Assembly: GCA_949282305.1 (NCBI GenBank)
Contig: CASDPB010000036.1
Span: forward strand, 66,425-130,424
Direction of reading: 5' to 3'
DNA from: an uncultured Lentisphaeria bacterium
GTDB lineage: Bacteria; Verrucomicrobiota; Lentisphaeria; Victivallales; UBA1829
DNA length: 64,000 nucleotides
The notes beneath the pieces are model-generated. The model was not told the origin of the DNA. It did not search any database and saw nothing but the letters and a program-made list of their open reading frames with translations. Both the position numbers and the translations under genes were made by a program. Shown piece by piece: positions 6,716 to 64,000 of this stretch (positions within the stretch are counted from its first letter, which is position 1; the number at the start of each line of letters is the position of its first letter).

Positions 6716-6843
6716 AACAACCTCCTTATACTAAAGAAATATAAAAAGTTTTTCGCAAAATGCAAACATTTCCGACAAGATTTACGACAGATGTTTCACA
6801 ACACCTCCGTGCGATGGGATAGTTGCGGCTGCTCCCGAAAGCT

Positions 6844-7385
6844 GGACAGCTTGACTTGGTGTGAAATGCCCGTAAAATGAACCTGGAAAGGGGAGGGGAC
6901 TTTTATGAAAAGACCGTATGACTCCAAATTCAAAAGCCGCATTGGAAGCGCTGCACGGGGAAATATCAGATTCATCCGAATCAGATACCGCAGTTGAGAA
7001 AGAAGTTCATGGTAGAAGGTGCTTCCGAGATATTTCTGTCTAGGATTGAGCGGAAAGAAAGTAAATAATCTGATGGGAAAAGAGCGGACGTCCCGAAATC
7101 GGGAATGACTTTTTATGAAGTTCCATGTCAGTGGATATACTGCTTTGCGGAGTTTTCTGCCTGACTTCGGAATCTTTGACCGGTTCGCTGCAAGGTGCTT
7201 TGGAGCAACGTAGTGAACACAAAGGACATTTACAGACGCATTTTTCTATAGATAAGAACTTGAATGAATTATCGCGATGCAGGTATACCCACTGTCGGTT
7301 TCGCTTAGAGAGCAGGCGGCGTTTCATTACTGGAGCCCGACACACCCGCCCCTGTTCTCATGGAACAGCAGTTTGTTATCTGTCT
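6844..7385 (+). mobile_element. decayed IS3-family element, copy A (left IR, frameshifted OrfA N-terminus, internally deleted OrfB tail)
   Basis: The left end GGACAGCTTGACTTGGTGTGAAATGCCCGT (6844-6873) matches the inverted end of copy C with 2 mismatches. From ATG 6905 it reads MKRPYDSKFKSRIG.., and after a frameshift HPNQIPQLRKKFMVEGASEIF, the IS3 OrfA HTH pattern (..HPNQI.QWKK.L.EGA.E.F). The tail ..RRRFITGARHTRPCSHGTAV aligns with the OrfB C-termini of copies B and C. No intact transposase remains. Confidence 0.6.
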
Positions 7386-8278: not shown

Positions 8279-8528
8279 AATTTTTGGGTTTTCTATTGTA
8301 TCAATATATTTTATTGTTCGCAGATTGCAGGTATCGAAATTTGAATAATATCTTTACCCGCATACCCCAAAATATGTAATCGCATAATAAGCACTTGCTT
8401 ATAGATTTCCTCCTCATAACTGTTTTTTAGGTGATCTGGGAATAAAAACTTTGCAATTCGGTCAGGTTATTTCTTGATACACCCTCAATCTTTGGAGAAA
8501 CAATCTTTTCCTGATCGAAATGAAAATT

Positions 8529-9443
8529 TTATTTCCGATAAAGTACAATATCTCCCAATAAAATGGTATTCCCTTGACTAGGTGGAAATGTCCGATCCAA
8601 AATTTTAATTTTTTCTGTTCGTTTCCACTGCTTCAGCAACCGTTCAGCAATTGGTATAAGGCGTTTTGCCCGTTCAACAATATCTTCACTTACCATTGGT
8701 AATTCAAAATTATGATATTTCTTTGGAACTTGATAGCCTTCAACGGAAAAACGTATTTTTGCCATTGCACCGCCCAGATGTACTTTTTCGCTGGTCAAAT
8801 AGTTTGAAACTATAAGACTGGGAGCTCCCGTAACTCCATTAATTTCAAAAATCCCATCATGATTTGATCGGGCTCTCCAAGTCGGAGGCGCATGAAACTC
8901 GGAAAACGGGCGAGTTGTTACGATAACCATCCCATTCGCAATAGGGTTCCCATTCTGATCAATCAATTTTCCTTTTAAATTTACAGATTCCAAACTTAAG
9001 AGTAATACTATGGGAAATTTATCTTTTTCTGACACAATATTACTTACAGAAAGCTTTTGAACGGAAATATTCTTTGAGGAAGAACAAAATGGAGCTTCGA
9101 CCGTTATTGTATATTCTCCACAGGGAACCTGATCAAATATAAAATCACCACGTTGATTCAATAGTTTAGTTTTTTGCTTTTCCCCATTACCGGACAGATA
9201 AACTGTAACTTTATTATAATTGATTCGCGGCAAACTTTCCCGTAATGAAAAGAATAAATTGCTCCATTCTTGTGGAGATTTAGTATCAGCTTTTTCCATA
9301 CGGTCAAGCAGTACATCAAGATCATATGTGTTATTCAGGTCAACAGCCCCTGTAATAGTGAATGTTTCTTTTGCATTCAGGAAAAGTCCATTCAGCAAAA
9401 AGAGGGAGAGCAGTAAACATGTAAATATTTTTCCCATTTCCAT
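8529..9443 (-). CDS. secreted protein with two carboxypeptidase-regulatory-like repeats (paralog of 7376..8278)
   Basis: 304 aa with an N-terminal signal/TM segment (KIFTCLLLSLFLLNGLFLNA). Repeats read TITGAV..NQRGDFIFDQVPCGEYTITV and LKGKLIDQNGNPIANGMVIVT..NHDGIFEINGV. It shares a C-terminal module with its neighbour (LPMVSEDIVERAKR...LGDIVLYRK versus LPLISEDILYFARR...IGDIVADR). Confidence 0.75.
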   Translation of the reverse strand: MEMGKIFTCLLLSLFLLNGLFLNAKETFTITGAVDLNNTYDLDVLLDRMEKADTKSPQEWSNLFFSLRESLPRINYNKVTVYLSGNGEKQKTKLLNQRGDFIFDQVPCGEYTITVEAPFCSSSKNISVQKLSVSNIVSEKDKFPIVLLLSLESVNLKGKLIDQNGNPIANGMVIVTTRPFSEFHAPPTWRARSNHDGIFEINGVTGAPSLIVSNYLTSEKVHLGGAMAKIRFSVEGYQVPKKYHNFELPMVSEDIVERAKRLIPIAERLLKQWKRTEKIKILDRTFPPSQGNTILLGDIVLYRK

Positions 9444-9552
9444 TTTCCTCGTTTATAGATCAATAAAATGATGTTTCCTTGTATCCCTTGAAATTATTCT
9501 GGAACATCAGAACCGGAAATGCCAGGATTATAATGCGCTTTCCCCTCTGGTT

Positions 9553-9900
9553 GGACAGTTTTTTATTGAAAGATCGGTGTAAAGCTCCTTTGAGTTACTA
9601 TATCCTGCAGACTGCCGATTGCAAGTCCGGAAATAGACTTTGTCCGGAGTTTGATATTGCAGAGTCGGGCGAATCCGATCAGAGCTGTAAACGCTCACAA
9701 ATGCTGAACACCGAATCTGGGCTGATGCGGACGTGGATTGACCGTTCGCAAATTCTACGATTTCTGCAACTTGAGCCCCCGCTTATGATTTACTCTGGAT
9801 TCACGTCGATTCTGTTCCGAGGTCAAACGGGAAGGCATATCTGCAGGAGGGGATTCTTTTCTGCGTCTTTTCCTCTGATCGCTGGCAGGATGCCGAAATC
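9553..9900 (-). mobile_element. decayed IS3-family element, copy B (right end plus OrfB C-terminal remnant, 5' part missing)
   Basis: The forward sequence GGACAGTTTTTTATTGAAAGATCGGTGTAAAGCTCCTTTGAGTTACTATAT.. is collinear with the start of copy C (GGACAACTTTTTATTGAAGGACCAGTGAAAAGCCTTTGAATTACTATAT..). Minus-strand translation gives ..VSVYSSDRIRPTLQYQTPDKVYF, the rve-integrase C-terminal motif (YN..R.HS.L.Y.TP..). The frame is broken by stops upstream. Confidence 0.55.
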
Positions 9901-9921
9901 ATCGTATTTCACGTCTGTCGA

Positions 9922-10605
9922 TTACCAGGAATCCTGTAGAATTTCCTCTTCACTTTTCATAAAAAAACTGAGCATAAGTTCATTGATCGTTGTCAATGGC
10001 AGGAAATCCGGGTGCCCAAACTCTTCAATTGAATAAGTACCAGATATATACCGATAGAATGTCAAAGTATCAATTTTATCTAATAACCTACCTTGCTGGG
10101 AAACTAAAGAAGGAATATTTGCTGGCTCCGCATGAGCATCATTGTAAACAAATTTAACACTCTTAAATAAAGATAACATTTCATAGATTAACCCAACGGG
10201 GATTGAATAATCTCTCTTCCAGCGAAATATAAATCTATAAATATGTTGGAGCAATCTTCTATTGCAGAAATAAGTGATTACCCTGTAACGCCAAGACGCC
10301 CATTTAGAGATTTTGATGATACGATCTGCAGATTCAGTCTTTTGCGGTAATATGTTTTCTAATTTATTAATTACAAGGCTCATTTTCGCTAAATATTTTT
10401 TCTGATAATATTGCTTTCCCGTAAGCCAGGCAGATTCAGATTGCTTAGGATGAAAGTCATGACAATATGCACATAACCGGTAATGTTGAAATAAATAACA
10501 AACCAGTAGACATATCACTTCTTGTTTCATCAAGATTTTTTGTTTATTCATTTTATCGCTTCTTTGGATGTAAATCTGAAACATCAATTTCTGCCCCCCA
10601 CACAT
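9922..10605 (-). CDS. hypothetical protein (AT-rich island)
   Basis: 227-aa ORF with an ATG start (internal ATG alternative at 10551). I recognise no family. Confidence 0.55.
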   Translation of the reverse strand: MCGGQKLMFQIYIQRSDKMNKQKILMKQEVICLLVCYLFQHYRLCAYCHDFHPKQSESAWLTGKQYYQKKYLAKMSLVINKLENILPQKTESADRIIKISKWASWRYRVITYFCNRRLLQHIYRFIFRWKRDYSIPVGLIYEMLSLFKSVKFVYNDAHAEPANIPSLVSQQGRLLDKIDTLTFYRYISGTYSIEEFGHPDFLPLTTINELMLSFFMKSEEEILQDSW

Positions 10606-10921
10606 TTCATAAAAATTCCATCCGCCTTGTTTTGAAAACCAGGGGAATAATATCTGCGTCAGTTATTCACCGCTGAAACGAAAGGGATTTCTTTTACGTC
10701 TATCCTCCACAAGGAAGAGCCCCATCTTTTGGCATAAAGTAGCCAGACAATAGAAAATTTCAAGAGGCAAAACAGAAGACTTCATGGTTTCATTACTTAA
10801 AAAAAGATTGTTTTTTGTCAAAAAAACGTTGTCTTCATTTTATGATTGAAACCGGTTGTCTAAAATGCTTGTAAGCGGGATATGTCCTGAACGGAATGAA
10901 CTGTTTTGCGTTATGAAAATC

Positions 10922-11257
10922 TTAAAATGATTCACGATAAATGCTTTCACAAAAGAAATGTAAAGAATTATTCTCATATTCATCAAACTCCCATGAAATA
11001 TGTTCCAATTGTGAAGACGAAATGTCACGAATATCAATATAATATTCGTCTTCAACATTGCCATAGTTAAATTGATCTGTCAACTCTACTCCCTGAACAT
11101 TTACAAATATCAGGGACATATGATTATTGAAGGAGATTTTTAAATCTATTGTCTTATTTTCTCGATTTATCAAAAAATCCAGGTTTTGTAATTTTACTAC
11201 AGGCAAAGACAACAGGGCTTTCAGTTCAACTTCTGATGTTATCACTTCCTTGCTCAT
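10922..11257 (-). CDS. hypothetical small acidic protein, translationally coupled to the upstream TPR gene
   Basis: The track ORF extends to 11305, but ATG 11257 lies 1 nt after the TPR gene stop (TGAaATG). Translation: MSKEVITSEVELKALLSLPVVKLQNLDFLINRENKTIDLKISFNNHMSLIFVNVQGVEL... It has no signal peptide. Confidence 0.6.
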   Translation of the reverse strand: MSKEVITSEVELKALLSLPVVKLQNLDFLINRENKTIDLKISFNNHMSLIFVNVQGVELTDQFNYGNVEDEYYIDIRDISSSQLEHISWEFDEYENNSLHFFCESIYRESF

Positions 11258-11258
11258 T

Positions 11259-12170
11259 TCACCGTCCTTCGGGATATTGCTGATTATATTCATGAGATTT
11301 ATCATACTGAAAAATAGATCTCAAATTACAAAATATGTCCGCCTTAGGCTGAATCTCACCACTTGCAATGAAATCCATTATTGCATCATTAAAATTCTGC
11401 AGAAAAGCATAAGCCTGCCCTCTGTTAAATAATACATTTGCATCTTTGGGAGCATTCGATAAAAATACAGAGAAATCCTTAACAGCAGACTCATAATCTG
11501 ACATATAAAAATAGCAGCATCCACGAAAATGATATAATTTTATCTGCGCCGGGAAATTCTTTATGAGGAATTCATATTCCGAAAGAGCAAGCTCACATTC
11601 ACCTTTTGCTGTCAGACTTTCAGCATGATTCAATTTCTTTCCCAACCTTATTGGAGCTTTAATCGTTATTTGCCTGAGTCCTGCAATCTCTTTTATTTTC
11701 CGCATAAGTAACTTTAACGTATTCTGTATCTTTATATCTTCAGGCTTTAGCCGCAAAGCCTTTAGATAGGACTGTCGAGCTGATTCAAATTCATATAAAA
11801 ATTCATATATGATTCCCATATTAAGAAAAACATCATATTCCGGCAATAGATGACTGCTTTTCCGGTAATCACATAATGCCTTATTCCATTGTCCTGTATG
11901 TTGATAAGCTCTGCCGCGATTATATAAAGTTGAGGGAGCATCCGGTTTCAAGTCAAGGGCAATAGAATATTCGCGTATTGCGGCTTCCCAGTCTTTCTTT
12001 TTGGAATAGCATAATCCCCGCAGCGCATAGAAACGAGGATTATGAGGTTCTCCTGCAATTAACTGAGTATATATACGGATTGCCTCGTCAAAATTCTTTT
12101 TGTCATAGCAATCGTCGGCTTGAAAGATCAAATCATGAACCTGCTGTGTCATTTTGATAATGGTCCTCAT
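11259..12170 (-). CDS. tetratricopeptide (TPR) repeat protein
   Basis: 303 aa with repeated A..Y..AL.L.P......N.G motifs, for example EAIRIYTQLIAGEPHNPRFYALRGLCY, AAIREYSIALDLKPDAPSTLYNRGRAY and ARQSYLKALRLKPED. An alternative start is at 12152. Confidence 0.85.
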   Translation of the reverse strand: MRTIIKMTQQVHDLIFQADDCYDKKNFDEAIRIYTQLIAGEPHNPRFYALRGLCYSKKKDWEAAIREYSIALDLKPDAPSTLYNRGRAYQHTGQWNKALCDYRKSSHLLPEYDVFLNMGIIYEFLYEFESARQSYLKALRLKPEDIKIQNTLKLLMRKIKEIAGLRQITIKAPIRLGKKLNHAESLTAKGECELALSEYEFLIKNFPAQIKLYHFRGCCYFYMSDYESAVKDFSVFLSNAPKDANVLFNRGQAYAFLQNFNDAIMDFIASGEIQPKADIFCNLRSIFQYDKSHEYNQQYPEGR

Positions 12171-12340
12171 TCATATATTGTCTGATCCTGTCATTTTTGG
12201 GGATCCAGCTTATCTGGCAAATTTGTCCAGCCATACTCTGTTTCTCCAACAGTGCACCCTCCATTGACAACATATTAATGTCACGGAGACAATAAATAAA
12301 AGAACATATACATAAATATTCAGACTGCTTTTATTAAATT

Positions 12341-12694
12341 TTATCCTTTCAACAAAGTTATACTACCTAATAATCCCACAGTATATCTCATGTCATAGTG
12401 TTGAAATGGATTCTCCTGCTTAAAATAATCATCCGCGATCATTAGCATTGCTGCGATTACATAATTATTTTTGGATAAAAGCTCCATTGTTTCATTAATA
12501 TATCTATTGCTGCATGTAATTTGTGATGACGTAATTCCATTATAAAAAAATGAATTTTCTAAATGAACAAGTATTTGCGTTTCCGTTGCATTAATATCTT
12601 TGATTGTCCCAAACAGATACGGACTTCCAAAGACATCTTGAAAATCCCAAGGGTCACTTACAATGATTTTAACCTTTTTGCTGAATAATTCCAT
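12341..12694 (-). CDS. hypothetical small protein (AT-rich island)
   Basis: 117-aa ORF with ATG 12694 preceded by GGAAATGGG. No signal peptide and no family recognised. Confidence 0.6.
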   Translation of the reverse strand: MELFSKKVKIIVSDPWDFQDVFGSPYLFGTIKDINATETQILVHLENSFFYNGITSSQITCSNRYINETMELLSKNNYVIAAMLMIADDYFKQENPFQHYDMRYTVGLLGSITLLKG

Positions 12695-13065
12695 TACCCA
12701 TTTCCAAATGTGACTTGACGCAACTTTTCCTTACCTTACTCCACATTCATTGAGTTTGCAAGTGCGCTTTTCTTTCTCGTTTCCCATTTCGCCTTTGAAA
12801 TGTGTGCTGCCGTATCCTGAAAGACATGAATGTCACCATCGTCAGCACGAAATATTCTGAGCTTCGCCGGTCCCGGCTTTGTCTCAAACAGACTTCATCC
12901 ATGAAAACGCAGGGATGCGTTCCGGAAATCGGCAGCATACGACATTGGCTGACTTCACTGCAACAAGGATTTTACTGCTAATGCCGGGAGAGGGAAACAG
13001 GGGAAAGGTTCTAAACCGCCGGATGGGGTCTCTGAGCACTTCGGAAAAAGGGAAATGAGGAAGAT

Positions 13066-52395: not shown

Positions 52396-53093
52396 GAATG
52401 GGGCGTATCGGGAAAGATCGGATTTTCACCCTTGTGGAGCTCCTGATCGTGATTGCGATCATCGCGATTCTGGCGGCGATGCTTCTGCCTGCTCTGGGCA
52501 AGGCGCGGAATTACGCGCGCAGGATTCAATGTGTCGGAAACTATCGGCAGATTTTCCTCGGCACCGTCAATTATCAGGACGAGAATAAGGAATTCATCTG
52601 CAATGGGGACATCCGCGGAACGGTTTTCGGCGGAGTCGGACAGTACTGGCATAGCCGCATTCTTTATTATGCCGGAGGTCAGAAAGGGAAAAACAGCGCG
52701 AAGATTTTCAACTGTCCTTCGGAGCCCGCCCCGGAAAATTTTCCTTACACTTCCTACGGAATCAACTGCGCTTTCACCGGTGTCGCATGGCGTTCCGACG
52801 CGACTTACGGGGCGTTCATGCGCAAGACCTCCTCCGTGAAGGAGCCGTCCAGAGTGCTCCATGTGGCGGAGGGCGGGGGGATGAATTACCGGATCGACAG
52901 TGCGAACTGGTGGTATTTCCGGCATGGCGGAACTTACCTGCGCGCGCCGGGAACTTTGAACTATGGACCGGGCGCAAAGACCAATGTCATGTATTTTGAC
53001 GGTCATGTCGCGCTGATGACACAGCCTGAGTCCCGGCAGGTGAATATGCAGGACGGCTTTTATGCCAATGCAAAGGTGGACTGGCACGAATGA
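52392..53093 (+). CDS. type IV prepilin-like protein (DUF1559-type, H-X9-DG tail degenerate)
   Basis: [55 protein letters not shown], with C-terminal ..[12 protein letters not shown]. It has 4-nt overlaps with both neighbours. Confidence 0.85.
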
Positions 53094-57003: not shown

Positions 57004-57049
57004 AAAAAAGCCCTGCGGATCCGATGACCCGCAGGGCTGAACTTTTTAT
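57004..57049. terminator. bidirectional rho-independent terminator between convergent genes
   Basis: AAAAAAGCCCTGCGG-(10 nt)-CCGCAGGGCTgaacTTTTTATT: a 10-bp stem (57009-57018 / 57029-57038) with T-runs on both strands. Confidence 0.7.
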
Positions 57050-58323
57050 TCCCACTCGATTGTTCCCGGGGGCTTGGATGTGATGTCGTAGACAACGCGG
57101 TTGACGCCTTCGACTTCGCGGATGATCCGTTCCGTCATGGTGTCGAGGAGTTCCCACGGCAGACGCACGACCTGTGCCGTAACCGCGTCCACGCTGTTGA
57201 TGGAGCGGATCGCGATCACATAGTCGTAGGTGCGCTTGTGGTTTTTCATGCCGACCGTCTTGACCGGAACGAAAATGGCGAATGTCTGCCATGTTTTATG
57301 GTACCAGCCGGACTTCATCAGCTCCTCGGTGACGATGGCATCGGCTTCGCGCAGGATTTTCAAGGTGCTGCGGTCGATGGCGCCGAGGTGACGCACTCCG
57401 AGAGAGGGACCGGGGAAGGGATGTCTGTCGATGAGCTCGGAGGGAAGTCCGAGAAGACGCCCGACCACGCGGACTTCATCTTTGAACAGACGTTCGACCG
57501 GTTCCACGAGTTTGAACTTCATATCTTTGGGAAGCCCGCCGACGTTGTGATGGCTCTTGATGACTCCGGCGGGATTGCCGTCCAGCGGAATGCTCTCAAG
57601 AATGTCCGGATAGATCGTGCCCTGTCCGAGGAACGGGGCGTCAATTTTTGCGGCGGCCTCGGCGAAGACTTCGATAAATTCCTTGCCGATGATCTTGCGT
57701 TTCTGTTCGGGATCGCTCACCCCCTGCAGTTTGTCGAGGAAGCGGTCGGAGGCGTCAATGTAGCAGAGATTCATGTCGAAGTTGCGCGCGAAAACCTCCT
57801 GCACCATCTCCGGCTCGTTCTTGCGGAGCAGTCCGTGGTTGACGAAAACACAGGTGAGCTGTTTCCCGATTGCCTTGTGGATCAGGGCGGCGACGACGGA
57901 GGAATCCACCCCGCCGGAGAGCCCGAGCACAACTTTCTGATCCCCGACCTGTTCGCGAATGTCCCTGACGGCTTCTTCGATGAAATGTTCCATGGTCCAG
58001 GAACCTTTGCATCCGCACTGGTTGTGGCAGAATTCGACGGCGCGTTCAATCTTTTCCGTCAGATCGGCTCCCTTGCTGTTCATGATTTTCATGACAGGCA
58101 GTCCGAGTGCCGTGAATTTTTCGAGTTCCTGCCGATGCTCGGGAGCTCCGGCATCCGTACAGAGAATGAGTCCGACTGGCTTTTCCTGCATCAGGCGTTC
58201 GACGCTGACCGTGTAGGGCATGACCATCGTATAGATGTGTTTGTCGCGAATCGCCCGTGCGATCTTCTGGATGTCTTCGCAGACAAAGTTCAGAAGAACA
58301 ATAGTTTCCGGTGTTTGCTTCAT
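57046..58323 (-). CDS. guaA: GMP synthase, ATP-pyrophosphatase plus dimerisation domains, with a vestigial N-terminal GATase remnant
   Basis: 425 aa. VVLGLSGGVDSSVVAALIHKAIGKQLTCVFVNHGLLR (PP-loop), ..IKSHHNVGGLP.. and C-terminal KPPGTIEWE are collinear with E. coli GuaA residues about 200-525. Only about 80 aa of GATase-like sequence remain, without the catalytic Cys/His/Glu (see finding). Confidence 0.9.
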   Translation of the reverse strand: MKQTPETIVLLNFVCEDIQKIARAIRDKHIYTMVMPYTVSVERLMQEKPVGLILCTDAGAPEHRQELEKFTALGLPVMKIMNSKGADLTEKIERAVEFCHNQCGCKGSWTMEHFIEEAVRDIREQVGDQKVVLGLSGGVDSSVVAALIHKAIGKQLTCVFVNHGLLRKNEPEMVQEVFARNFDMNLCYIDASDRFLDKLQGVSDPEQKRKIIGKEFIEVFAEAAAKIDAPFLGQGTIYPDILESIPLDGNPAGVIKSHHNVGGLPKDMKFKLVEPVERLFKDEVRVVGRLLGLPSELIDRHPFPGPSLGVRHLGAIDRSTLKILREADAIVTEELMKSGWYHKTWQTFAIFVPVKTVGMKNHKRTYDYVIAIRSINSVDAVTAQVVRLPWELLDTMTERIIREVEGVNRVVYDITSKPPGTIEWE

Positions 58324-58589
58324 AAAAAATAATCCCGTAATAATTAATTGACAATCTCTGGAAGATACACCGCTTTTGCCGTGAAGTCAAGAGCGGTGTT
58401 GAAGATTTCCTGATTCCTTCGTCTCTGTGCGGCGCCCCTGAACTGGTTTTGCGCGGGGGAGGGATCATATGGATGCGGACTGTGTTCATGCTCCGACACT
58501 TTCCGAACCGTTTTCCGTTATGCGATTTCCGCCTCAAAAATCTTTCCCCCTCCCGCATCCGCTTCTCCATGCAGCTGACTGGCGCTTGC

Positions 58590-59060
58590 TCATAAAGAGA
58601 AGTTTTCGGAAAGGTATTCCCTCAACAATTTCAGGCGAGTCTGCAGCGCAATTCCATTTTCCTTTGAAAAATCAGCTTCTACCGGTGGCAGGTCGGGACG
58701 ATAAGTTTGGGCTGTCGCTGCCTCTGCCCAGACAGTCATTACTTCTATATACCTTGATAAAGCGTCAGCGGGAGTTGCAGCTGCTTCTGTCACCAGATAC
58801 AGCGGTGGCAGATCTCCGGCAACGACCCATAAATATTCCTCAATATTTTCATCTGATGGAATGATTTTAAACAGAAAAACGCCCAGAATATATCCTTCAT
58901 CAATCCCCAGAAACGATTCAAGTATTTTGAGGCACCATTTCTGATTTTCCATATATTCTCTGGCACTCTGATAGGTCTCAGAAATTTCATATAATGATTT
59001 CTCATCTAAATCTTCAATTGAGATAATTGACGAAAAATCAATGTCATCTTTATTGTTCAT
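58590..59060 (-). CDS. hypothetical acidic protein (possibly DUF4826-like)
   Basis: 156 aa, AT-rich, RBS GAGGGGAAATA-ATG. It contains ..EEYLWVVAGDLPPLYLVTE.. The family recollection is uncertain. Confidence 0.65.
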   Translation of the reverse strand: MNNKDDIDFSSIISIEDLDEKSLYEISETYQSAREYMENQKWCLKILESFLGIDEGYILGVFLFKIIPSDENIEEYLWVVAGDLPPLYLVTEAAATPADALSRYIEVMTVWAEAATAQTYRPDLPPVEADFSKENGIALQTRLKLLREYLSENFSL

Positions 59061-59316
59061 TATTTCCCCTCATTATCCTTCCTCGCTTGACAAAAGATCA
59101 AGTCGGTCGGCATTCATGAACATATTCTTTTTTAATTTGAAAAGGTTTGATTTCCCATTATTTATAGGGAAACCGTTATCAATTTCACTATCATGAAAAG
59201 CCTTGAGATATGCAGTTTGGCATAGAGCCACTGCTTCTGCATTGGACAGGCAGCCACAAAAAACAAGGAAATCTTGTTTTTCCCGATTATTTGCAATATC
59301 ATGTCAAACCTTTTCT

Positions 59317-60018
59317 TTACTCAGTGCTATCACTATTCTGCAGACGTTTTAGCGCGTCTTTTAGATCCAAACGGGCTGCGTGAGACTTTATCTTCTTAAG
59401 ACCGCCTTTAAACGCTGTCTTTACAAAGGATGCTTCAGTCTGGGTAATGGGCAATATATTTCCTATGCTGTTTGCAATGAAACATACAACCCTGTAATCT
59501 GCTGAATTTAGCATTGCTGACAGCAATGTTAAAAATCCTCTTTCTCCCAAGAGGATTAACGCAATATATATCCCCGCCTTTGTCTGTTCATTTTTTGTTG
59601 TTTGTAACTTCGATTTGAAGATAGGAATATATTCTGAATAATTGTTTTGTGCAATAGCGATTGCTAGATTTCTTCTGACAATACTGTTTCTTGATTTATT
59701 ATACTCCAATAGCAACTCTTTGGTTTGTTCGCGGGATAAAACGCAATCATAGAGCTCTTCGCTGGCAGTGAGCCTGACGATCTCTTCTTTATCTTTCAAT
59801 GCAGCAAACAAATATTTTATTTGTTCTTCCGGAGCATATCGGGATAAACATTCCAGAAAAGCAACGCGCACAAAAGGACTTCCGGAGGAAAATAACGGTT
59901 TTATTTTTTTTAGAGGAAGAAAAATTTTCTCTGCAGCAATATTATACAGCAAAACTTCTGCTGCTGTATCTTCTTGTTGCCTTCTCATTGTTTTTATATT
60001 TTCATCATTATGCGGCAT
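59317..60018 (-). CDS. HEAT/ARM-like repeat protein
   Basis: 233 aa with repeated units of about 30 aa, such as SPFVRVAFLECLSRY, EEIVRLTASEELYDC, NSIVRRNLAIAIAQN and DYRVVCFIANSIGNI (PBS-lyase HEAT-like). RBS AGGAAG. Confidence 0.7.
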   Translation of the reverse strand: MPHNDENIKTMRRQQEDTAAEVLLYNIAAEKIFLPLKKIKPLFSSGSPFVRVAFLECLSRYAPEEQIKYLFAALKDKEEIVRLTASEELYDCVLSREQTKELLLEYNKSRNSIVRRNLAIAIAQNNYSEYIPIFKSKLQTTKNEQTKAGIYIALILLGERGFLTLLSAMLNSADYRVVCFIANSIGNILPITQTEASFVKTAFKGGLKKIKSHAARLDLKDALKRLQNSDSTE

Positions 60019-60085
60019 GAGTTTCTTCCTGAAATATGAAGTATGACTGAAATAATTGCAGAATATTGCGCCTTTTCCGCAACTC

Positions 60086-60492
60086 GGACAACTTTTTATT
60101 GAAGGACCAGTGAAAAGCCTTTGAATTACTATATTACATTGTTTGCTGATTGCAAGTCCCGAAATAAATTTCTTCTGACCTCTGATACTGCAGAACCGAA
60201 TGAATCCGCCTGGTATTGCAAAAGCTCACATAAGGCTGAACACCGAATCCTTGCTGATGTGGACGTGGATAAAACGTCCGAAAATTCAATGATTCTGCAA
60301 TTGGCACATCCGTTTGTGAATTTCCCTGCAATCACGGCGTTTCAGTTCCGCAGTCAAATCCATAAAGCGGCGTATCCATCTCAGGAACATACTTCGTAAA
60401 AAAGTCATTCCAGATTTCGGGACGACCAATCTTTCCCCTTCAGCTTATTCAAAGTCAATTGAACGGGCATTTTACACCAAGTCAAGTTGTCC
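60086..60492 (-). mobile_element. MITE-like non-autonomous IS3-family derivative, copy C (both terminal inverted repeats present)
   Basis: The ends are GGACAACTT (60086-60094) and AAGTTGTCC (60484-60492). The left IR (reverse complement of 60463-60492) matches copy A at 6844-6873. The interior encodes only an OrfB tail, ..FCNTRRIHSVLQYQRSEEIYF. The element is 407 bp in total. Confidence 0.6.
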
Positions 60493-60527
60493 GGTTTTCG
60501 GCGGTAGCCGAATCATACTCTCAGCAT

Positions 60528-61043
60528 TCATTCCCATACCTTGTCGACATCGTAAAAATAAGGCGAATACAAAGATGGTTTTCCTTCTTCTAATGCACGT
60601 AATGCAAGAGAAAAATCATGGTATGCTTCCGTTCCTGGACTGCAGGAAGTATCACGACATTCTTTTACTGTTGGAATATACTTTGGATCATTATAAAAAA
60701 CAATGCCAAATAATGCTTGAGAAGCAACCTCTTTGTTCTTGTCATACAAGAAATGGAGAGCTGCTTTTATTGTATTGGGATTTTTCTTACCAAAAACATA
60801 TACTCCATTCAAAAAACAAATCTTGCTTAAGCGATCCGTCAAAAGATTATTTGTAAGGATTTCATTGACTACATTCCAAAAATCAGTTCGTCTAATGAGA
60901 ACTCCTATGGCAGTGCCTGCAATTTTAGCAGAATGTGAATTCAGATAATCTATTAGTTCAATCGAATCCTTTTGTTCCAAATATTCTTGAATTTTCTCAT
61001 AAGACTGCTTTATCAGCCATTTTCTTACTGATACATCAAGCAT
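60528..61043 (-). CDS. hypothetical alpha-helical (HEAT/ARM-like?) protein
   Basis: ATG 61043 is preceded by AAGGAG and gives MLDVSVRKWLIKQSYEKIQEYLEQKDSIELIDYLNSHSAKIAGTAIGVLIRR... The track ORF's extra 67 N-terminal codons are Cys/Phe-rich junk. Confidence 0.6.
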   Translation of the reverse strand: MLDVSVRKWLIKQSYEKIQEYLEQKDSIELIDYLNSHSAKIAGTAIGVLIRRTDFWNVVNEILTNNLLTDRLSKICFLNGVYVFGKKNPNTIKAALHFLYDKNKEVASQALFGIVFYNDPKYIPTVKECRDTSCSPGTEAYHDFSLALRALEEGKPSLYSPYFYDVDKVWE

Positions 61044-61239
61044 GACATATCTCCTTGATTGATAACATCCGGAAAATTGCGCACATTTTGAAAAAGGGAA
61101 CTCGAAACATGACCTGTTTTCTGAATTGATTGCAATGACCAGACCGCAATCAAAAGAAAACAACCCGTGGAAAATGTAGTGCAAGAAGATGAAAAAGCAA
61201 TTCACGGAACAATTAAAATAGATGAAAAAGAATTTCGGA

Positions 61240-61572
61240 CACATTTCGTCAGTCGAGGATACGCTGAATGCGGAAGCTGACGCGATCTGTCTGGTTTCGA
61301 GTTATGCACAGTCCGGATCGGCAGGATATGCAGGGGATTGATAAACGCAAGTTTCAGACGAAAGCGGACAAAGTGGAGGTTCGCTTTCCATGTTTGTGAA
61401 CGTTGCCATTTGAAACGCGGTTCATTGAGCGTTATAAGACGAAGCAAAGCAGCGTCGAGGAAAACCTGATTGAGATGTTGTATCCGGCGGGCGTGTCTGT
61501 CCGGAGCGAGGCGAATATTGCCGAGGCATTGCGGGTGCGAAAGTCCGTTTCAGCATGCTGCGTGAATTAAAA
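61240..61572 (+). pseudogene. IS256-family (Mutator-like) transposase fragment, frameshifted
   Basis: Three consecutive frames read ..VEDTLNAEADAICLVSSYAQSGSAGYAGD* / GIDKRKFQTKADKVEVRFPCL* / TLPFETRFIERYKTKQSSVEENLIEMLYPAGVSVRSEANIAEALRVRKSVS.. This is collinear with the IS256 pattern ..EAE.dE.lGa.RYERs..R.gyRNGy..R.l.T..G.lel.vPr.R...F...l.eRYqR.E.al..al.EMY..GVSTR.v..i.e.L. The DDE core is absent, and the patch is less AT-rich than its surroundings. Confidence 0.65.
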
Positions 61573-61600
61573 TAAACGATTTGCGGAAAAATTTTCTGCT

Positions 61601-61939
61601 TTAGATGCTGTCAATTTCAATTTTTATTTCAAATTCTGTTGCAAAAATCTCAAAAATTAGTGGAATATTTGTGATAACCTTCAGCTTTTTCTCTTTTTCT
61701 ATCCATTGTATATAATTAAAATCATAATATTGAATTCTTTCCGTGTCAATAATCTTTACATCTATAACATGTTCAACCGTTATCTTGCCTTCTATTGCGG
61801 TCAGTGAAGCATCTGCGTAATAACATAACTGCATCTGACGGGTATTATGATTAACAGAAACTGCTTCTATATCGAAAAATCTATCATGGATCAGACCTGT
61901 GATCGAAGCTCGATCAAAACATTTGAATTCTTTTATCAT
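61601..61939 (-). CDS. hypothetical small beta-rich protein
   Basis: 112 aa; ATG 61939 with AAGGA upstream. It begins MIKEFKCFDRASITGLIHDRFFDIEAVSVNHNTRQMQLCYYAD... No signal peptide. Confidence 0.55.
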   Translation of the reverse strand: MIKEFKCFDRASITGLIHDRFFDIEAVSVNHNTRQMQLCYYADASLTAIEGKITVEHVIDVKIIDTERIQYYDFNYIQWIEKEKKLKVITNIPLIFEIFATEFEIKIEIDSI

Positions 61940-61998
61940 GGCAGAGACATCCTTATAATGCAGTCGGCAATGGAGAATTTCAAGGATTGACCGCAGTA

Positions 61999-62523
61999 TT
62001 ATTCAAGACGGATTTTTTCTATATGCTCTAACATTTTTAATGCCAATGGTTCTTTCGGATTAATTTTTATTTTTTTAAAAACCAAGGATAGATAAAAAAT
62101 CCTATTGCTGGAATCAGATAAACACTTCATTATTATAGATTGCGCCCGCCTTGGAGAAGTCAAGGTTCCTATTTCTGCGCATAAGAAAATCGAATTGTCA
62201 AGAATAAGATCTTGTGTAAAAGCAGAATGTTCCGGTTCCAGGCAGAAATAAGATATTTCAGAAAAATTCAGAGCAAAATCAACATCAACAAATTCATTTC
62301 TATTATTTATATAATTAGGACAATTCAGATCAAGAATCAATTCCCCTTGAGATATATCCATTGAGATTTTGCTTAATCTTCCGTCATGGAAATAATCGTA
62401 AGAGAACATTTTATAAAAGTCCTCATCTATATATTTTTTGTTTTTTGATAAAAAATCCTGATATATTCTATCGCAGGTTTTATATCCTCTTGAAGGAAAT
62501 ATTTTCTTCCTAAGTTTGAACAT
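61999..62523 (-). CDS. hypothetical protein
   Basis: 174 aa with RBS AAAGGAG. It contains ..YFHDGRLSKISMDISQGELILDLNCPNY..VDFALNFSEISYFCLE.. No signal peptide. Confidence 0.6.
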   Translation of the reverse strand: MFKLRKKIFPSRGYKTCDRIYQDFLSKNKKYIDEDFYKMFSYDYFHDGRLSKISMDISQGELILDLNCPNYINNRNEFVDVDFALNFSEISYFCLEPEHSAFTQDLILDNSIFLCAEIGTLTSPRRAQSIIMKCLSDSSNRIFYLSLVFKKIKINPKEPLALKMLEHIEKIRLE

Positions 62524-62955
62524 TTTATTCTCCTTTGCAAATAATTTTTGATTTTATTAAGTGAATCCACCGGATTTTGAACGTAAAAATGCTTTAAGAA
62601 TAAGAACTTATATAGAAAAAATAAAAAGTGAATGTTTATGAAAACTGTGCAATGCCCCCCTTGATTCGATATTATGTTGTTCCATATAGTCATAATCAGA
62701 TTTCAACTTTACTTCGGCTGCGGAATTCTCCGATTTTATCAGACGGTGTTCACTGCTCCATGTATAAGTTCAGGCTTCGTCCATCAGCATATTACCGTTC
62801 GCTTCATAAGATGCAAGGCGTCAAGGCAGATACAACTGACGAACTTGCGTATGATTTTTCAAATAACACAGGAGACGGTTCTCTCCATTCGCACTTATCG
62901 TTATTCATTGATATAAAATACATCCTTACAGTGTATCTTACAATGATGCAAACAC

Positions 62956-63447
62956 TTAATTTCTATCGTTTCCTGCGAATCTTGCAATTACTGCGGAAAT
63001 ATCCGGATTTCCGTAAATATCCAAATCTGTATTACCATTTTTCAAAGGAAGTGAATACAAGGGGAATATCTTATAACATGCCTCGTCAGATTCGATATGA
63101 AGAGATTCCGGATATCCACGAATAAAAAAATGCGAAGATTCAAATCCCATAGAATATGAATAGGATGCTCCCAAATATTTTTCCCCTATTATAAATTTTT
63201 GAACATCGGAAAAAATAATCTCAAAAGCGGGGTGTTTTTTATCTTGGGAATGAAACAGCAATTTGATATGCAAGCCTGTGTTATCCAGCATTGTTCTATC
63301 AGAAAATACACATGCATCATATAGAAGCCTGATCTCATGGCAGCAACAATCATGAAAATTATCTATTTCCGCAAGAAAATCATCAACACTGTCCTGCCCT
63401 TCAAACAGTTTATATCCTGTTTCTAATTCAAAAAGAGATGTGTTCAT
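62956..63447 (-). CDS. hypothetical protein
   Basis: ATG 63447 is preceded by AAGGGAG and gives MNTSLFELETGYKLFEGQDSVDDFLAEIDNFHDCCCHEIRLLYDACVF..LHIKLLFHSQ... The track ORF starts at TTG 63495. Confidence 0.6.
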   Translation of the reverse strand: MNTSLFELETGYKLFEGQDSVDDFLAEIDNFHDCCCHEIRLLYDACVFSDRTMLDNTGLHIKLLFHSQDKKHPAFEIIFSDVQKFIIGEKYLGASYSYSMGFESSHFFIRGYPESLHIESDEACYKIFPLYSLPLKNGNTDLDIYGNPDISAVIARFAGNDRN

Positions 63448-63498
63448 TTCGTTCTCCCTTGTCTTCACAGTCTGCATCAATATCTTTACAGACAATGC

Positions 63499-63804
63499 TC
63501 ATTCAAACTCTTTTGCTTCTGTCACTGTTAATTTCAATATGTGGCAAGAGAATGTTTTCCTCTCAGCGTAATGTAGCCATACAATAGAAAATTTCAAGGA
63601 GCAGAAGATTCCATCGTTCCACCATTTGCCGGCGGCAGGAAAAATCATGCTGAAGACTCCTTGAAACGTTCCGGTTGTTCCGGCAAAATCCTGTCCGGCG
63701 GTTCTTCGATTGTTTTCCGATTTCATGCCAGGACTTTGAACAACGGCAGATTTGACATCAGCGAAACGCACATTCGACTGCCGTTTCCCGTTCAACTGAA
63801 TCAC
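63499..63804 (-). CDS. doubtful 101-aa ORF (GTG start) of unknown nature
   Basis: GTG start with no RBS seen. The composition shifts within the ORF. It sits between a possible transposase fragment and the last small island gene. Confidence 0.25.
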   Translation of the reverse strand: MIQLNGKRQSNVRFADVKSAVVQSPGMKSENNRRTAGQDFAGTTGTFQGVFSMIFPAAGKWWNDGIFCSLKFSIVWLHYAERKTFSCHILKLTVTEAKEFE

Positions 63805-63861
63805 ATGCTGACACCTGATGTCTGCAACAGGCAGAGAATGAATCTGGAGAGTCAGGACAGT

Positions 63862-64000
63862 TCAGATACCTTCGGGATACTGCATGTTTGTCTCGATGAT
63901 CACCGCTTCGGAGCGGATGATGTCCTGCTTTTTACCCGCCGGACCATTTGTGAATATATTCAGATTTTATGCAATCCCATGTTTGCAGACTTGATTTTTT
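63862..64000 (-). pseudogene. possible IS4/IS5-type (DDE_Tnp_1) transposase fragment, runs to the right edge
   Basis: The minus strand reads GKKQDIIRSEAVIIETNMQYPEGI*, resembling the first-Asp region ..lriDSTvvEtNIhYPTDs.. of IS5/IS1182-like transposases with the Asp lost. The upstream part needs a frameshift. This is weak evidence. Confidence 0.3.

What the first reader, a model, noticed from the sequence alone, without database searches (positions are those of the whole stretch)
58590..64000. AT-rich island of eight or more small, mutually unrelated, same-strand ORFs riddled with IS debris: a candidate orphan 'polyimmunity' island in a PVC bacterium
Seen:
- Immediately upstream of guaA the composition switches from GC-rich to clearly AT-rich. 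The antisense shadow ORFs that litter the GC-rich parts of the track become much shorter and rarer here.
- All credible ORFs are on the minus strand: 58590-59060, a start-less frame at 59076-59303, 59317-60018, 60528-61043, 61601-61939, 61999-62523, 62956-63447 and 63499-63804.
- Most are 100-230 aa, cytoplasmic (no signal peptide), and most have their own Shine-Dalgarno sequence.
- None resembles another except two HEAT/ARM-like repeat proteins.
- Remnants of three different IS families lie between them: an IS3-derived MITE at 60086-60492, an IS256 fragment at 61240-61572 and a possible IS4/5 fragment at the right edge.
- No enzyme, transporter, regulator, toxin or secretion gene is present.

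Established:
- Arrays of heterogeneous small immunity genes, including HEAT, TPR and beta-rich 'Imm' families, occur as polyimmunity loci next to or detached from polymorphic toxin genes. Mobile orphan-immunity islands are described in gut Bacteroidales.

Inference:
- This island, together with the one at 6844-12700, may be such an acquired interbacterial-defence or immunity repository, which as far as I know is not described for Lentisphaerota-like organisms.
- Several ORFs share a loose ..FHD..(hydrophobic-x)n.. strand pattern that reminds me of Imm-type proteins. I cannot verify this.
Basis: partly seen in the sequence, partly recalled or inferred. Interest (0 to 1): 0.7.

Follow-up and report, generated by a model that had tools for sequence, protein, structure and literature searches.

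The report
Orphan Rhs-toxin immunity gene island
This AT-rich stretch in a gut Lentisphaeria (Victivallales) genome is mostly a set of antidote ("immunity") genes left behind from Rhs toxin loci whose toxin parts were deleted, a known type of bacterial self-defence store not previously documented in this phylum.

Summary
The AT-rich island is real: GC is 30-45% against about 57% in the flanks, over about 58.55-64.0 kb. It carries six intact minus-strand genes where about 0.5 ORFs are expected by chance.

Its core (B4-B7) derives from Rhs polymorphic-toxin loci:
- In other gut assemblies, the 95%-identical homolog of B6 (61999-62523) lies 33 nt downstream of an Rhs C-terminal toxin domain (CT1).
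- The 98%-identical homolog of B4 (60528-61043) is the first gene after a second, orphan Rhs toxin cassette (CT2).
- A 34%-identical B6 relative follows a full-length 1,788-aa Rhs carrying a CT1-like toxin, so toxin and immunity co-vary.
- The window keeps a degenerate YD-repeat stub (62614-62895) and the last codons of CT1 just upstream of B6. The toxin domain is gone.
- B5, B7 and two genes of the other island (A3, A4) occur together in one such Rhs-linked array elsewhere.
- All six genes show dN/dS of 0.08-0.35.

B1 is probably unrelated, and B3 (HEAT repeats) is unresolved. The IS256 fragment and a MITE-like repeat are confirmed. The IS3 and IS4/5 labels are not.

This is a new member of a known kind, in a phylum where it had not been documented.

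The parts
58590..59060 (-). B1, a 156-aa small protein (DUF4826-like, phrog_30002). It sits at the island edge with intermediate GC and is probably not an immunity gene.
   Evidence: phrog_30002 at 5e-20 and weak DUF4826 at 2.7e-4. A 34%-identical homolog lies between ilvN and rpmH/ilvC. A 72%-identical copy lies next to a sigma-54 regulator. No toxin linkage was seen.
59076..59303 (-). B2, an open frame with no start codon; probably a gene fragment.
   Evidence: There is no start codon. No family hit. No homolog in any fetched locus.
59317..60018 (-). B3, a 233-aa HEAT-repeat protein; an immunity candidate by analogy only.
   Evidence: Pfam HEAT_2 at 2.8e-14. It has an SD sequence. HEAT repeats are a listed immunity type in Zhang 2012. 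No relatives or context were found.
60077..60501 (.). MITE-like non-coding repeat with 18-nt imperfect terminal inverted repeats, shared with island A.
   Evidence: Inverted repeat 60077-60094 / 60484-60501. It is 72% identical to 9530-9827, with pieces at 7064-7121 and 6826-6873 and in L016. No transposase signal.
60528..61043 (-). B4, a 171-aa predicted immunity protein for Rhs toxin domain CT2. It is all-alpha in a low-confidence model.
   Evidence: 98%-identical homologs are the first gene downstream of the orphan Rhs-CT2 cassette in L006-L010. The 366-nt spacer has no ORF. dN/dS is 0.08. The AF2 model has nine helices at pLDDT 59.
61316..61564 (+). IS256-family (Transposase_mut) pseudogene fragment. 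It occupies the position that the CT2 toxin cassette holds in other strains.
   Evidence: Pfam PF00872, E = 1e-9, profile positions 56-137 of 379, with in-frame stops.
61601..61939 (-). B5, a 112-aa member of the Rhs-linked small-gene array; a probable immunity gene.
   Evidence: An 89%-identical homolog lies in the L007/L008 array downstream of the Rhs cassettes. dN/dS is 0.18. It has an SD sequence.
61999..62523 (-). B6, a 174-aa predicted immunity protein for Rhs toxin domain CT1. It defines a family with invariant FHDG, PN, E and S positions.
   Evidence: A 95%-identical homolog lies 33 nt downstream of Rhs-CT1 in more than 10 assemblies. A 34%-identical relative lies 28 nt downstream of a 1,788-aa Rhs with a CT1-like toxin. 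The family has 59 representatives. dN/dS is 0.11.
62557..62572 (-). Last codons (…GGFT*) of the deleted CT1 toxin gene.
   Evidence: DNA homology with L007 runs to 62572, which is 49 nt upstream of the B6 start. The translated frame ends …SGGFT**, against …RCGGFT* for CT1.
62614..62895 (-). Degenerate Rhs YD-repeat remnant (pseudogene with an in-frame stop).
   Evidence: tblastn hits from six independent Rhs proteins at the same relative position, best E = 5e-12 at 40% identity. The reading frame is …YEANGNMLMDEA*TYTWSSEHRLIKSENSAAEVKLKSDYDYMEQ….
62956..63447 (-). B7, a 163-aa member of the Rhs-linked small-gene array; a probable immunity gene.
   Evidence: A 91%-identical homolog is the last gene seen in the L007 array. 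A B7-like fragment lies just upstream of an orphan Rhs cassette in L105. dN/dS is 0.35. It has an SD sequence.
63499..63804 (-). B8, a doubtful ORF in the island's right border zone.
   Evidence: GTG start and no SD. No family hit. It contains a 41-nt repeat shared with island A at 10732-10772.
9922..10605 (-). A3 (island A). Its homolog lies in the same Rhs-linked array as the B4-B7 homologs.
   Evidence: 89% identical to L007 5397-6026. dN/dS is 0.31.
10922..11305 (-). A4 (island A). Its homolog lies in the same Rhs-linked array.
   Evidence: 84% identical to L007 6045-6380. dN/dS is 0.23.

Best explanation
The core of the island (B4, B5, B6, B7, about 60.5-63.5 kb) is a cluster of orphan immunity genes derived from Rhs polymorphic-toxin loci, with the toxin parts removed.

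How such loci work in related gut Victivallales:
- Large secreted Rhs proteins (1,770-2,250 aa, with an N-terminal Sec signal peptide) end in a conserved core motif followed by a variable toxin domain.
- The next gene is a small, AT-rich, cytoplasmic immunity gene. Its product is expected to bind and block that toxin.
- Further 'orphan' toxin-tip/immunity cassettes and toxin-less small genes follow.

What happened in this genome:
- The toxin-encoding parts were removed. CT1 was lost by an internal deletion that left a YD-repeat stub and the last five codons of the toxin.
- CT2 is replaced by sequence that holds an IS256 fragment.
- The immunity genes stayed intact, kept ribosome-binding sites, and remain under purifying selection.

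Inferred function: the cell makes these proteins to survive Rhs toxins delivered by neighbouring relatives that still carry CT1, CT2 and other tips.

Shown: the genomic linkage, toxin-immunity co-variation, the toxin remnant, purifying selection, strain variability and lineage-specific location.
Inferred: expression, physical neutralisation of the toxins, and the immunity role of B5 and B7 (array membership only) and of B3 (HEAT repeat, analogy only). B1 is probably an unrelated small gene at the island edge.
For: 1. B6 linkage. The 95%-identical homolog lies 33 nt after an ORF with RHS repeats, the core end [32 protein letters not shown] and a unique tail (CT1). This holds in more than 10 independent assemblies.
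2. Replication at distance. A 34%-identical family member lies 28 nt after a full-length 1,788-aa Rhs in five assemblies. That Rhs carries a CT1-like tail, with the motif GPE.HTPKGR.H.HVKGYNRQ..PDGTQIPHG.GG conserved.
3. B4 linkage. The 98%-identical homolog is the first gene after orphan cassette CT2.
4. A physical remnant in the window: a YD-repeat pseudogene and the …GGFT* end of CT1 directly upstream of B6.
5. B5, B7, A3 and A4 homologs sit in the same array as the B4 and B6 homologs in L007/L008. Other array members also follow Rhs tips elsewhere.
6. dN/dS is 0.08-0.35 for all six genes, and they have SD sequences.
7. Low GC (0.23-0.38) is typical of the genes just downstream of Rhs tips in this clade. 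This explains the island's composition.
8. Homology between strains is confined to cassette-sized blocks in different orders.
9. The island is absent from the guaA flank in 80 relatives.
10. Other B6-family members sit beside an Imm-NTF2-2 protein and a Sel1-repeat protein.
Against: - No ORF matches a curated immunity family (Imm*, SUKH) in Pfam, and no solved structure matches.
- The B6 structure prediction failed at pLDDT 32.
- The toxin activities of CT1 and CT2 are unidentified.
- B4 is separated from CT2 by 366 nt, so the coupling is looser than for B6.
- B5 and B7 have no direct toxin neighbour.
- B3 has no relatives or context.
- The distant B1 homolog is in a housekeeping context.
- Some B6-family members (P0017, P0086) have no toxin in view.
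- Whether this genome encodes CT1 or CT2 elsewhere could not be checked, so 'orphan' is shown for the locus only.
- The taxonomy of the comparison contigs L006-L016 and L162-L166 was not verified.
- Expression and neutralisation are untested.
Confidence: 0.77

Rival explanations
1. The island is a functionless, decaying wreck of a former Rhs locus. The small genes are leftovers on their way to loss and give no protection.
For: - The Rhs stub is a pseudogene with an in-frame stop.
- B2 lacks a start codon and B8 is doubtful.
- IS and MITE debris lie between the genes.
- Intergenic gaps of 430-560 nt break up any operon.
Against: - The toxin parts are selectively gone, while six small genes are intact with ribosome-binding sites.
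- dN/dS is 0.08-0.35 against orthologs in toxin-bearing arrays.
- Six long ORFs on one strand of 35%-GC DNA are far beyond chance.
- Orphan immunity genes have been shown to be functional in other systems (PMC3150448, PMC12247911).
Confidence: 0.1
2. The genes are not orphan. The genome still encodes Rhs proteins with CT1 and CT2 elsewhere, and these are spare or displaced self-immunity copies.
For: - Only 64 kb plus about 8 kb of this genome could be inspected.
- B6 is 95% and B4 is 98% identical to toxin-linked copies. That is much closer than the roughly 30-62% (as low as about 30%) reported for Bacteroidales rAID orphans.
- Rhs loci commonly leave displaced immunity genes behind after tip switching (PMC3150448).
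Against: - No intact Rhs gene lies in the window or its extension.
- The only Rhs sequence present is a toxin-less stub.
- This rival changes the label ('orphan') but not the nature of the genes.
Confidence: 0.2
3. The island is a generic horizontally acquired set of ORFans, such as phage or mobile-element cargo or an anti-phage defence island, and is unrelated to interbacterial toxins.
For: - AT-rich composition.
- A PHROG hit for B1.
- IS and MITE fragments.
- Most ORFs have no family assignment.
Against: - No PADLOC hit beyond a weak HEAT match.
- No phage structural, integrase or replication gene, no tRNA and no Rfam hit.
- Direct Rhs linkage for B4 and B6, and an Rhs remnant in place.
- The AT-richness is shared with the genes downstream of Rhs tips in this clade.
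Confidence: 0.05

Closest known systems
Rhs-CT/RhsI toxin-immunity pairs and orphan rhs-CT/rhsI modules (Dickeya, Yersinia, Salmonella, E. coli; Poole et al. 2011, PMC3150448; Koskiniemi et al. 2014, PMC3967940)
   Same: In the related strains (L006-L011, L162-L166):
- A large YD-repeat protein has a conserved core end and a variable toxin tip.
- A small immunity gene lies immediately downstream.
- Further core-fragment + tip + immunity cassettes follow.
- A 160-nt core-end direct repeat could act as a recombination substrate.
The window's B4 and B6 are near-identical to those immunity genes.
   Different: - The window has no main rhs gene and no toxin tips. Only a toxin-less YD stub and the immunity genes remain.
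- Poole et al. noted that it was unclear why toxin fragments are retained if cells are simply collecting immunity genes. Here they have been purged.
- The Rhs proteins of this clade start with Sec signal peptides, and no PAAR or VgrG domain was detected. Delivery may therefore differ from the T6SS-linked Rhs of Proteobacteria.
Heterogeneous polyimmunity loci (Zhang et al. 2012, PMC3482391)
   Same: - Same-strand set of small, structurally unrelated predicted immunity genes without intervening intact toxins.
- Strong differences between strains.
- Two such loci in one genome, as in the roughly 13% of polyimmunity-locus-bearing organisms reported there.
- HEAT, TPR and Sel1-type repeat proteins among the members.
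   Different: - Intergenic gaps are large (430-560 nt) in three places and hold an Rhs stub, an IS256 fragment and a MITE-like repeat.
- No recombinase is adjacent.
- None of the genes belongs to a named Imm or SUKH family.
- Only two genes have direct toxin linkage.
- In 2012, extended polyimmunity loci were reported only from Proteobacteria, Bacteroidetes, Firmicutes and Actinobacteria.
AID-1 and recombinase-associated AID (rAID) orphan-immunity systems of gut Bacteroidales (Ross et al. 2019, as described in PMC12247911)
   Same: - Gut habitat.
- Arrays of co-oriented short genes (about 100-300 codons) with GC below about 41%.
- The genes encode orphan immunity proteins related to toxin-linked cognates.
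   Different: - No tyrosine recombinase and no conserved intergenic motif in the window.
- The toxins concerned are Rhs tips with Sec-type leaders, not Bacteroidales T6SS effectors.
- The orphans are 95-98% identical to their cognates, against roughly 30-62% in rAID.
- No evidence of an ICE or other vehicle.
T6SS immunity-gene arrays formed by sequential effector displacement in Vibrio cholerae (Kirchberger et al. 2017, PMC5361080)
   Same: Immunity genes are retained after loss or replacement of the effector. This gives strain-specific arrays of orphan immunity genes. The comparison rests on that paper's title and abstract only.
   Different: Those arrays stay at the 3' end of an active T6SS effector locus. 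Here the genes lie detached from any delivery or toxin gene, next to guaA.

Membership tests
Rhs-associated immunity gene (RhsI-type), applied to B6 | Homologs are encoded immediately downstream of an Rhs C-terminal toxin domain, on the same strand. | tested here: met
   33 nt downstream of Rhs-CT1 in L006-L015 and L107. 28 nt downstream of a 1,788-aa Rhs in L162-L166.
Rhs-associated immunity gene (RhsI-type), applied to B6 | The immunity family co-varies with one toxin-domain family. | tested here: met
   Both lineages pair a B6-family gene (34% identity between them) with a CT1-type tail sharing GPE.HTPKGR.H.HVKGYNRQ..PDGTQIPHG.GG. Only two lineages were sampled.
Rhs-associated immunity gene (RhsI-type), applied to B6 and B4 | The protein binds its cognate toxin domain and specifically neutralises it. 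| not testable with these tools
   This needs co-expression and pull-down experiments. The structure prediction of B6 alone failed.
Rhs-associated immunity gene (RhsI-type), applied to B4 | Homologs are encoded immediately downstream of an Rhs C-terminal toxin domain. | tested here: met
   B4 is the first downstream gene after orphan Rhs-CT2 in L006-L010. However, a 366-nt ORF-free spacer separates them. One lineage only.
Rhs-associated immunity gene, applied to B5 and B7 | Homologs are encoded immediately downstream of a toxin domain. | tested here: not met
   Homologs lie in the toxin-less distal part of the L007/L008 array. A B7 fragment lies upstream of an orphan Rhs cassette in L105, not downstream. 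Array membership supports 'works like' but not direct pairing.
Orphan rhs-CT/rhsI module (Poole 2011) | Rhs core fragment with the conserved core-end motif, plus toxin tip, plus immunity gene, downstream of a main rhs gene. | tested here: not met
   The window has no main rhs, no core-end motif and no toxin tip. Only a YD stub and the final five toxin codons remain. The feature is met in L007, L009 and L162.
Heterogeneous polyimmunity locus (Zhang 2012) | Tandem immunity genes are never interrupted by toxin genes or cassettes. | tested here: met
   There is no intact toxin or cassette between B3 and B7, only a toxin-less Rhs pseudogene stub.
Heterogeneous polyimmunity locus (Zhang 2012) | Same orientation with small intergenic distances (a likely single transcript). 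| tested here: inconclusive
   All genes are on the minus strand. Gaps are 13, 15 and 59 nt, but also 432, 509 and 557 nt filled with debris. The promoter and terminator scan was uninformative.
Heterogeneous polyimmunity locus (Zhang 2012) | The number and type of immunity genes differ between strains. | tested here: met
   Different gene sets and orders in the window, L006, L007, L009 and L010. Homology is limited to cassette-sized blocks.
Heterogeneous polyimmunity locus (Zhang 2012) | Four or more tandem genes each identifiable as immunity genes (an 'extended' locus). | tested here: inconclusive
   Two have direct toxin linkage (B4, B6). Two have array association (B5, B7). One rests on analogy (B3). 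None is in a named Imm family.
Heterogeneous polyimmunity locus (Zhang 2012) | Often adjacent to a XerC/D-type recombinase. | tested here: not met
   There is no recombinase in the island or its flanks, only an IS256 fragment. Two tyrosine recombinases do flank the related Rhs array in L162 and L164.
rAID system (Bacteroidales) | A tyrosine recombinase plus an array of co-oriented short low-GC genes plus conserved intergenic motifs. | tested here: not met
   The array and low GC are present. The recombinase and conserved intergenic motifs are absent: only SD sequences are shared.
Pfam Imm*/SUKH immunity families | A significant match to a curated immunity-family profile. | tested here: not met
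   No Imm or SUKH hit for any island ORF at E <= 1. For 48 B6-family members the only hits were sub-threshold, to DUF4085 and YxiG_2.

The most novel reading that the evidence does not exclude
Gut Victivallales run a Sec-dependent Rhs warfare system that does not use a T6SS, with its own uncatalogued toxin tips (CT1, CT2) and immunity families (the FHDG family and others). Some lineages have turned former Rhs arrays into dispersed, toxin-free chromosomal 'immunity banks' (islands A and B). Cassettes move between these banks by an unknown route, possibly involving the shared MITE-like repeat. This would be a PVC-phylum counterpart of the Bacteroidales AID/rAID systems that arose independently.
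Probability: 0.2. Interest if true: 0.65.

Novelty: new member of a known kind. Interest (0 to 1): 0.45.

Why it matters
Orphan immunity genes are thought to shape which strains can coexist in the gut. So far they have been worked out mainly in Bacteroidales and Proteobacteria.

This locus adds the following:
- A clean, sequence-level example in Lentisphaerota, with the 'before' state in related assemblies (Rhs + toxin tip + immunity) and the 'after' state here (toxin deleted in place, immunity kept under purifying selection).
- A testable toxin-immunity pair: CT1 with the FHDG-motif family of 59 cluster representatives. A second pair is CT2 with B4. None of these is in Pfam.
- An indication that the Rhs proteins of this clade use Sec-type leaders rather than PAAR or VgrG fusions.
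- Practical help for annotating AT-rich 'hypothetical' islands in PVC genomes.

Tried and rejected
- Pfam, NCBIfam, PADLOC and PHROGs scans of all island ORFs gave only HEAT_2 for B3 and DUF4826/phrog_30002 for B1.
- No Rfam family and no tRNA in the island.
- The word-indexed homolog search found only near-identical relatives for B6 and B7. The exhaustive HMMER search was needed to find the B6 family.
- Single-sequence AF2: B6 was unusable at pLDDT 32. B4 reached pLDDT 59, and Foldseek against PDB gave no hit with E < 0.26.
- The B6-family profile gave nothing against PDB. Against Pfam it gave only sub-threshold DUF4085 and YxiG_2 hits.
- hhalign of the B6 family against B7, B5 and A4 was not significant. 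The shared-superfamily idea is therefore not supported.
- Locus scans with the B6-family alignments failed because no conserved 7-10-residue stretch exists.
- The B3 metagenome scan found no relative.
- IS3 and IS4/5 attributions were rejected after Pfam and tblastn against plasmids.
- CT1 and CT2 have no Pfam or PDB match.
- No integron- or rAID-like junction repeats were found.
- The sigma-70 promoter and terminator scan was uninformative in AT-rich DNA.
- No clean 'empty site' could be defined. Synteny on both sides of guaA is already lost in the closest species.

Full report
OBSERVATION

The compositional break is real. GC is 0.55-0.60 up to about 58.2 kb. It drops to 0.29-0.45 from 58.5 kb to the window end.

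An ENA contig that carries the same genes (L001, reverse orientation) continues past 64000. There, GC returns to about 0.52 from about 64.1 kb. A 119-aa lipoprotein, two APH-type kinases, ppk and ppx follow. The island is therefore about 5.5 kb and essentially complete in the window. A second island of the same composition lies at about 6.5-13 kb.

The listed minus-strand ORFs exist. Six ATG-started ORFs of at least 100 aa lie on the minus strand and one on the plus strand. First-order Markov resamples of the island expect 0.49 in total.

Other points that hold:
- SD-like sequences precede B1, B3, B4, B5, B6 and B7, but not B8.
- All-against-all BLASTP finds no relationship among the island-B ORFs.
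- Pfam, NCBIfam, PADLOC and PHROGs give only HEAT_2 for B3 (2.8e-14) and a DUF4826/phrog_30002 match for B1.
- There is no tRNA and no Rfam hit.

MOBILE DEBRIS

The IS256 fragment is confirmed: Transposase_mut, E = 1e-9, plus strand, about 61316-61564, with internal stops.

The 60.08-60.50 kb element has 18-nt imperfect terminal inverted repeats. It recurs in island A at 9530-9827 (72% identity), with inverted pieces at 7064-7121 and 6826-6873. 'MITE-like repeat' therefore holds. An IS3 origin has no support from Pfam or tblastn. The supposed IS4/5 fragment at the right edge has no support either.

ORGANISM AND SYNTENY

A GuaA scan of species-representative genomes returns only Lentisphaeria/Victivallales, mostly gut MAGs. 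The best is UBA11452 at 98% identity, and Victivallis vadensis is at 83%.

None of the 80 loci carries an island gene, an AT-rich tract next to guaA, or the window's flanking markers. With the closest species, nucleotide homology is confined to guaA plus about 100 nt upstream. The island is therefore lineage-specific and not a conserved feature of the clade. No clean empty site can be defined, because the neighbourhood is rearranged on both sides.

THE DECISIVE EVIDENCE

B6 and B7 have only near-identical relatives in the word-indexed search. Looking up where the 95%-identical B6 relative is encoded gave 20 contigs.

In all contigs that extend upstream, the B6 relative lies 33 nt downstream of an ORF with these features:
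- RHS repeats (Pfam RHS_repeat at 3.6e-6; precomputed TEN_YD-shell);
- the canonical Rhs core end …[45 protein letters not shown];
- a unique tail, here called CT1, ending …RCGGFT*.

Next comes an orphan Rhs fragment with the same core end but a different tail (CT2). After a 366-nt spacer with stops in all frames comes a 98%-identical B4 homolog.

In L007/L008 the array continues in this order:
- a 109-aa membrane protein;
- a 234-aa protein;
- a Sel1-repeat protein;
- an 83-aa protein;
- homologs of island-A genes A3 (89%) and A4 (84%);
- homologs of B5 (89%) and B7 (91%).

Genes of both window islands thus co-occur in one Rhs-linked array elsewhere.

REMNANT IN THE WINDOW

Six independent Rhs proteins hit 62614-62895 (minus strand) at the same relative position, with best E = 5e-12. 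The frame reads …YEANGNMLMDEA*TYTWSSEHRLIKSENSAAEVKLKSDYDYMEQ…, a YD repeat with an in-frame stop. About 25 codons later it reads …SGGFT**, matching the end of CT1, directly before the B6 ribosome-binding site.

DNA homology with the toxin-bearing strains runs from the end of B6 to 49 nt upstream of its start and then stops. The toxin domain and core end were therefore deleted in place. At the position of CT2 the window has unrelated sequence that contains the IS256 fragment.

Inter-strain homology is limited to four cassette-sized blocks in a different order: 60526-61056, 61592-61955, 61954-62572 and 62897-63538.

INDEPENDENT REPLICATION

Exhaustive HMMER finds 59 cluster representatives of the B6 family. 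All are about 170-200 aa and aligned full-length, with invariant FHDG, PN, E and S positions.

One member, 34% identical to B6, lies 28 nt downstream of a full-length 1,788-aa Rhs in five assemblies. Orphan Rhs cassettes and two tyrosine recombinases follow it. That Rhs ends in a tail homologous to CT1, with GPE.HTPKGR.H.HVKGYNRQ..PDGTQIPHG.GG conserved. Toxin and immunity families therefore co-vary.

Contexts of other members:
- One sits beside a protein with a Pfam Imm-NTF2-2 domain (6.7e-11).
- One sits beside a Sel1-repeat protein.
- Two have no toxin in view.

A scan with the shared Rhs core end brought 57 more loci. In L112 the 109-aa membrane protein follows another Rhs tip. In L105 a B7-like fragment precedes an orphan cassette.

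Full-length Rhs proteins in these loci are 1,770-2,250 aa. They begin with Sec-type signal peptides and score RHS_repeat down to 1e-42. No PAAR or VgrG domain was detected. They are followed by ORFs of GC 0.23-0.38. Low GC is thus a property of this cassette pool, which explains the island's composition without invoking a foreign donor.

ARE THE ORPHAN GENES ALIVE?

dN/dS values for window versus L007 orthologs:

| Gene | dN/dS |
|---|---|
| B4 | 0.08 |
| B5 | 0.18 |
| B6 | 0.11 |
| B7 | 0.35 |
| A3 | 0.31 |
| A4 | 0.23 |

Together with the intact frames and SD sequences, this argues against plain decay.

WHAT REMAINS WEAK

- B1: a 34%-identical homolog sits between ilvN and rpmH/ilvC, and a 72%-identical copy sits beside a sigma-54 regulator. 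B1 is probably not part of the immunity set.
- B2 has no start codon and no relatives.
- B3 is a HEAT-repeat protein. Zhang et al. 2012 list HEAT repeats as an immunity type, but no relatives or context could be found.
- B4 is modelled as nine short helices at pLDDT 59. ARM-repeat proteins top the fold search, but with E > 0.26. It is not detectably similar to B3.
- The 'FHD' pattern is the invariant motif of the B6 family. It aligns in register with B7, but not significantly: hhalign E = 0.028, probability under 2%.
- CT1 and CT2 match no Pfam family or solved structure, so the toxic activities are unknown.
- Whether this genome holds CT1 or CT2 elsewhere could not be checked.
- The taxonomy of the comparison contigs was not verified.

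COMPARISON WITH WHAT IS KNOWN

The related arrays are textbook Rhs-CT/RhsI loci with orphan modules (PMC3150448). The window's locus lacks the defining parts of such a module: main rhs, core-end motif and toxin tip.

It fits the 'heterogeneous polyimmunity locus' of Zhang et al. 2012 on several criteria:
- orientation;
- absence of intervening toxins;
- unrelated members;
- strain variability;
- two loci per genome.

It does not fit on tight spacing or recombinase adjacency. Only two genes have direct toxin linkage.

It resembles Bacteroidales rAID arrays in gene size, co-orientation, low GC and habitat. It lacks their tyrosine recombinase and conserved intergenic motifs. Its orphans are 95-98% identical to toxin-linked copies, against roughly 30-62% in rAID.

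In the searched library no paper combines a Lentisphaerota term with Rhs or orphan immunity. The exception is a phyletic table entry in Zhang 2012, which also stated that extended polyimmunity loci were then known from only four phyla.

VERDICT

This is a new member of a known kind, in a new phylum and with uncatalogued toxin and immunity families. It includes an unusually clear in-place record of toxin loss. Interest is moderate.

Noticed in passing
window 57046-58323 (-): GuaA here is 425 aa and has only the ATP-pyrophosphatase (NAD_synthase-like) and GMP_synt_C domains. The first ~110 residues hit no glutaminase (GATase) family. This length is conserved across 80 Victivallales genomes, which suggests a split or GATase-less GMP synthase as in some archaea.
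   Followed up: partly
window 57046-58421 versus L017 9903-11278: Against the closest species (93% nt identity in guaA), homology stops at both ends of guaA. Neither flank is syntenic, so gene order is unusually fluid around this housekeeping gene.
   Followed up: partly
window 2523-2603 and 52424-52504; L022 15906-15990: An 81-nt inverted repeat pair (80% complementary) lies about 50 kb apart in GC-normal DNA. One arm also matches a related genome (79%). It may be a dispersed repeat or small element.
   Followed up: no
window 7376-8278 and 8529-9443 (-), island A: Two paralogous (27% identical) signal-peptide proteins with CarboxypepD_reg/transthyretin-like domains lie in island A. A 303-aa TPR protein lies at 11259-12170 and a 117-aa ORF at 12341-12694. 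Their relation to the immunity cassettes A3 and A4 is unknown.
   Followed up: partly
L113 1276-6576, L128 172-6795, L119, L163 2607-7973: Full-length Rhs proteins of these gut Lentisphaeria-like contigs start with Sec-type signal peptides, and no PAAR or VgrG domain was detected. Delivery may not depend on a T6SS.
   Followed up: partly
L009 and L010 (whole loci): The unit [CT1 - B6 - CT2 - B4 - 88 aa - 234 aa - Sel1 - 83 aa] appears circularly permuted between contigs. This suggests tandem duplication of the whole array or assembly through a repeat.
   Followed up: no
L162 11091-13879 and L164 5202-7990: Two adjacent tyrosine recombinase (Phage_integrase) genes directly flank the Rhs toxin/immunity array that holds the distant B6 relative. 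This is reminiscent of recombinase-associated immunity arrays.
   Followed up: no
window 62628-63125 (+): A 165-aa plus-strand ORF lies antisense to B7 and the Rhs stub. Gene callers annotated a shorter form of it (157 or 142 aa) in L001-L003. It is most likely a shadow ORF, but its coding status was not tested.
   Followed up: no
L109 1282-6576 (C-terminus): One related Rhs protein ends in a weak Ntox37 match (E = 4e-5, below the Pfam cutoff). This was the only toxin tip in the set with any family hint.
   Followed up: no
window 61954/61955: The B6 and B5 homology blocks abut to the nucleotide, and the junction removes the N-terminal extension that the B5 homolog has in L007 (129 aa there, 112 aa here). 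This is a precise recombination joint with no recognisable repeat.
   Followed up: partly
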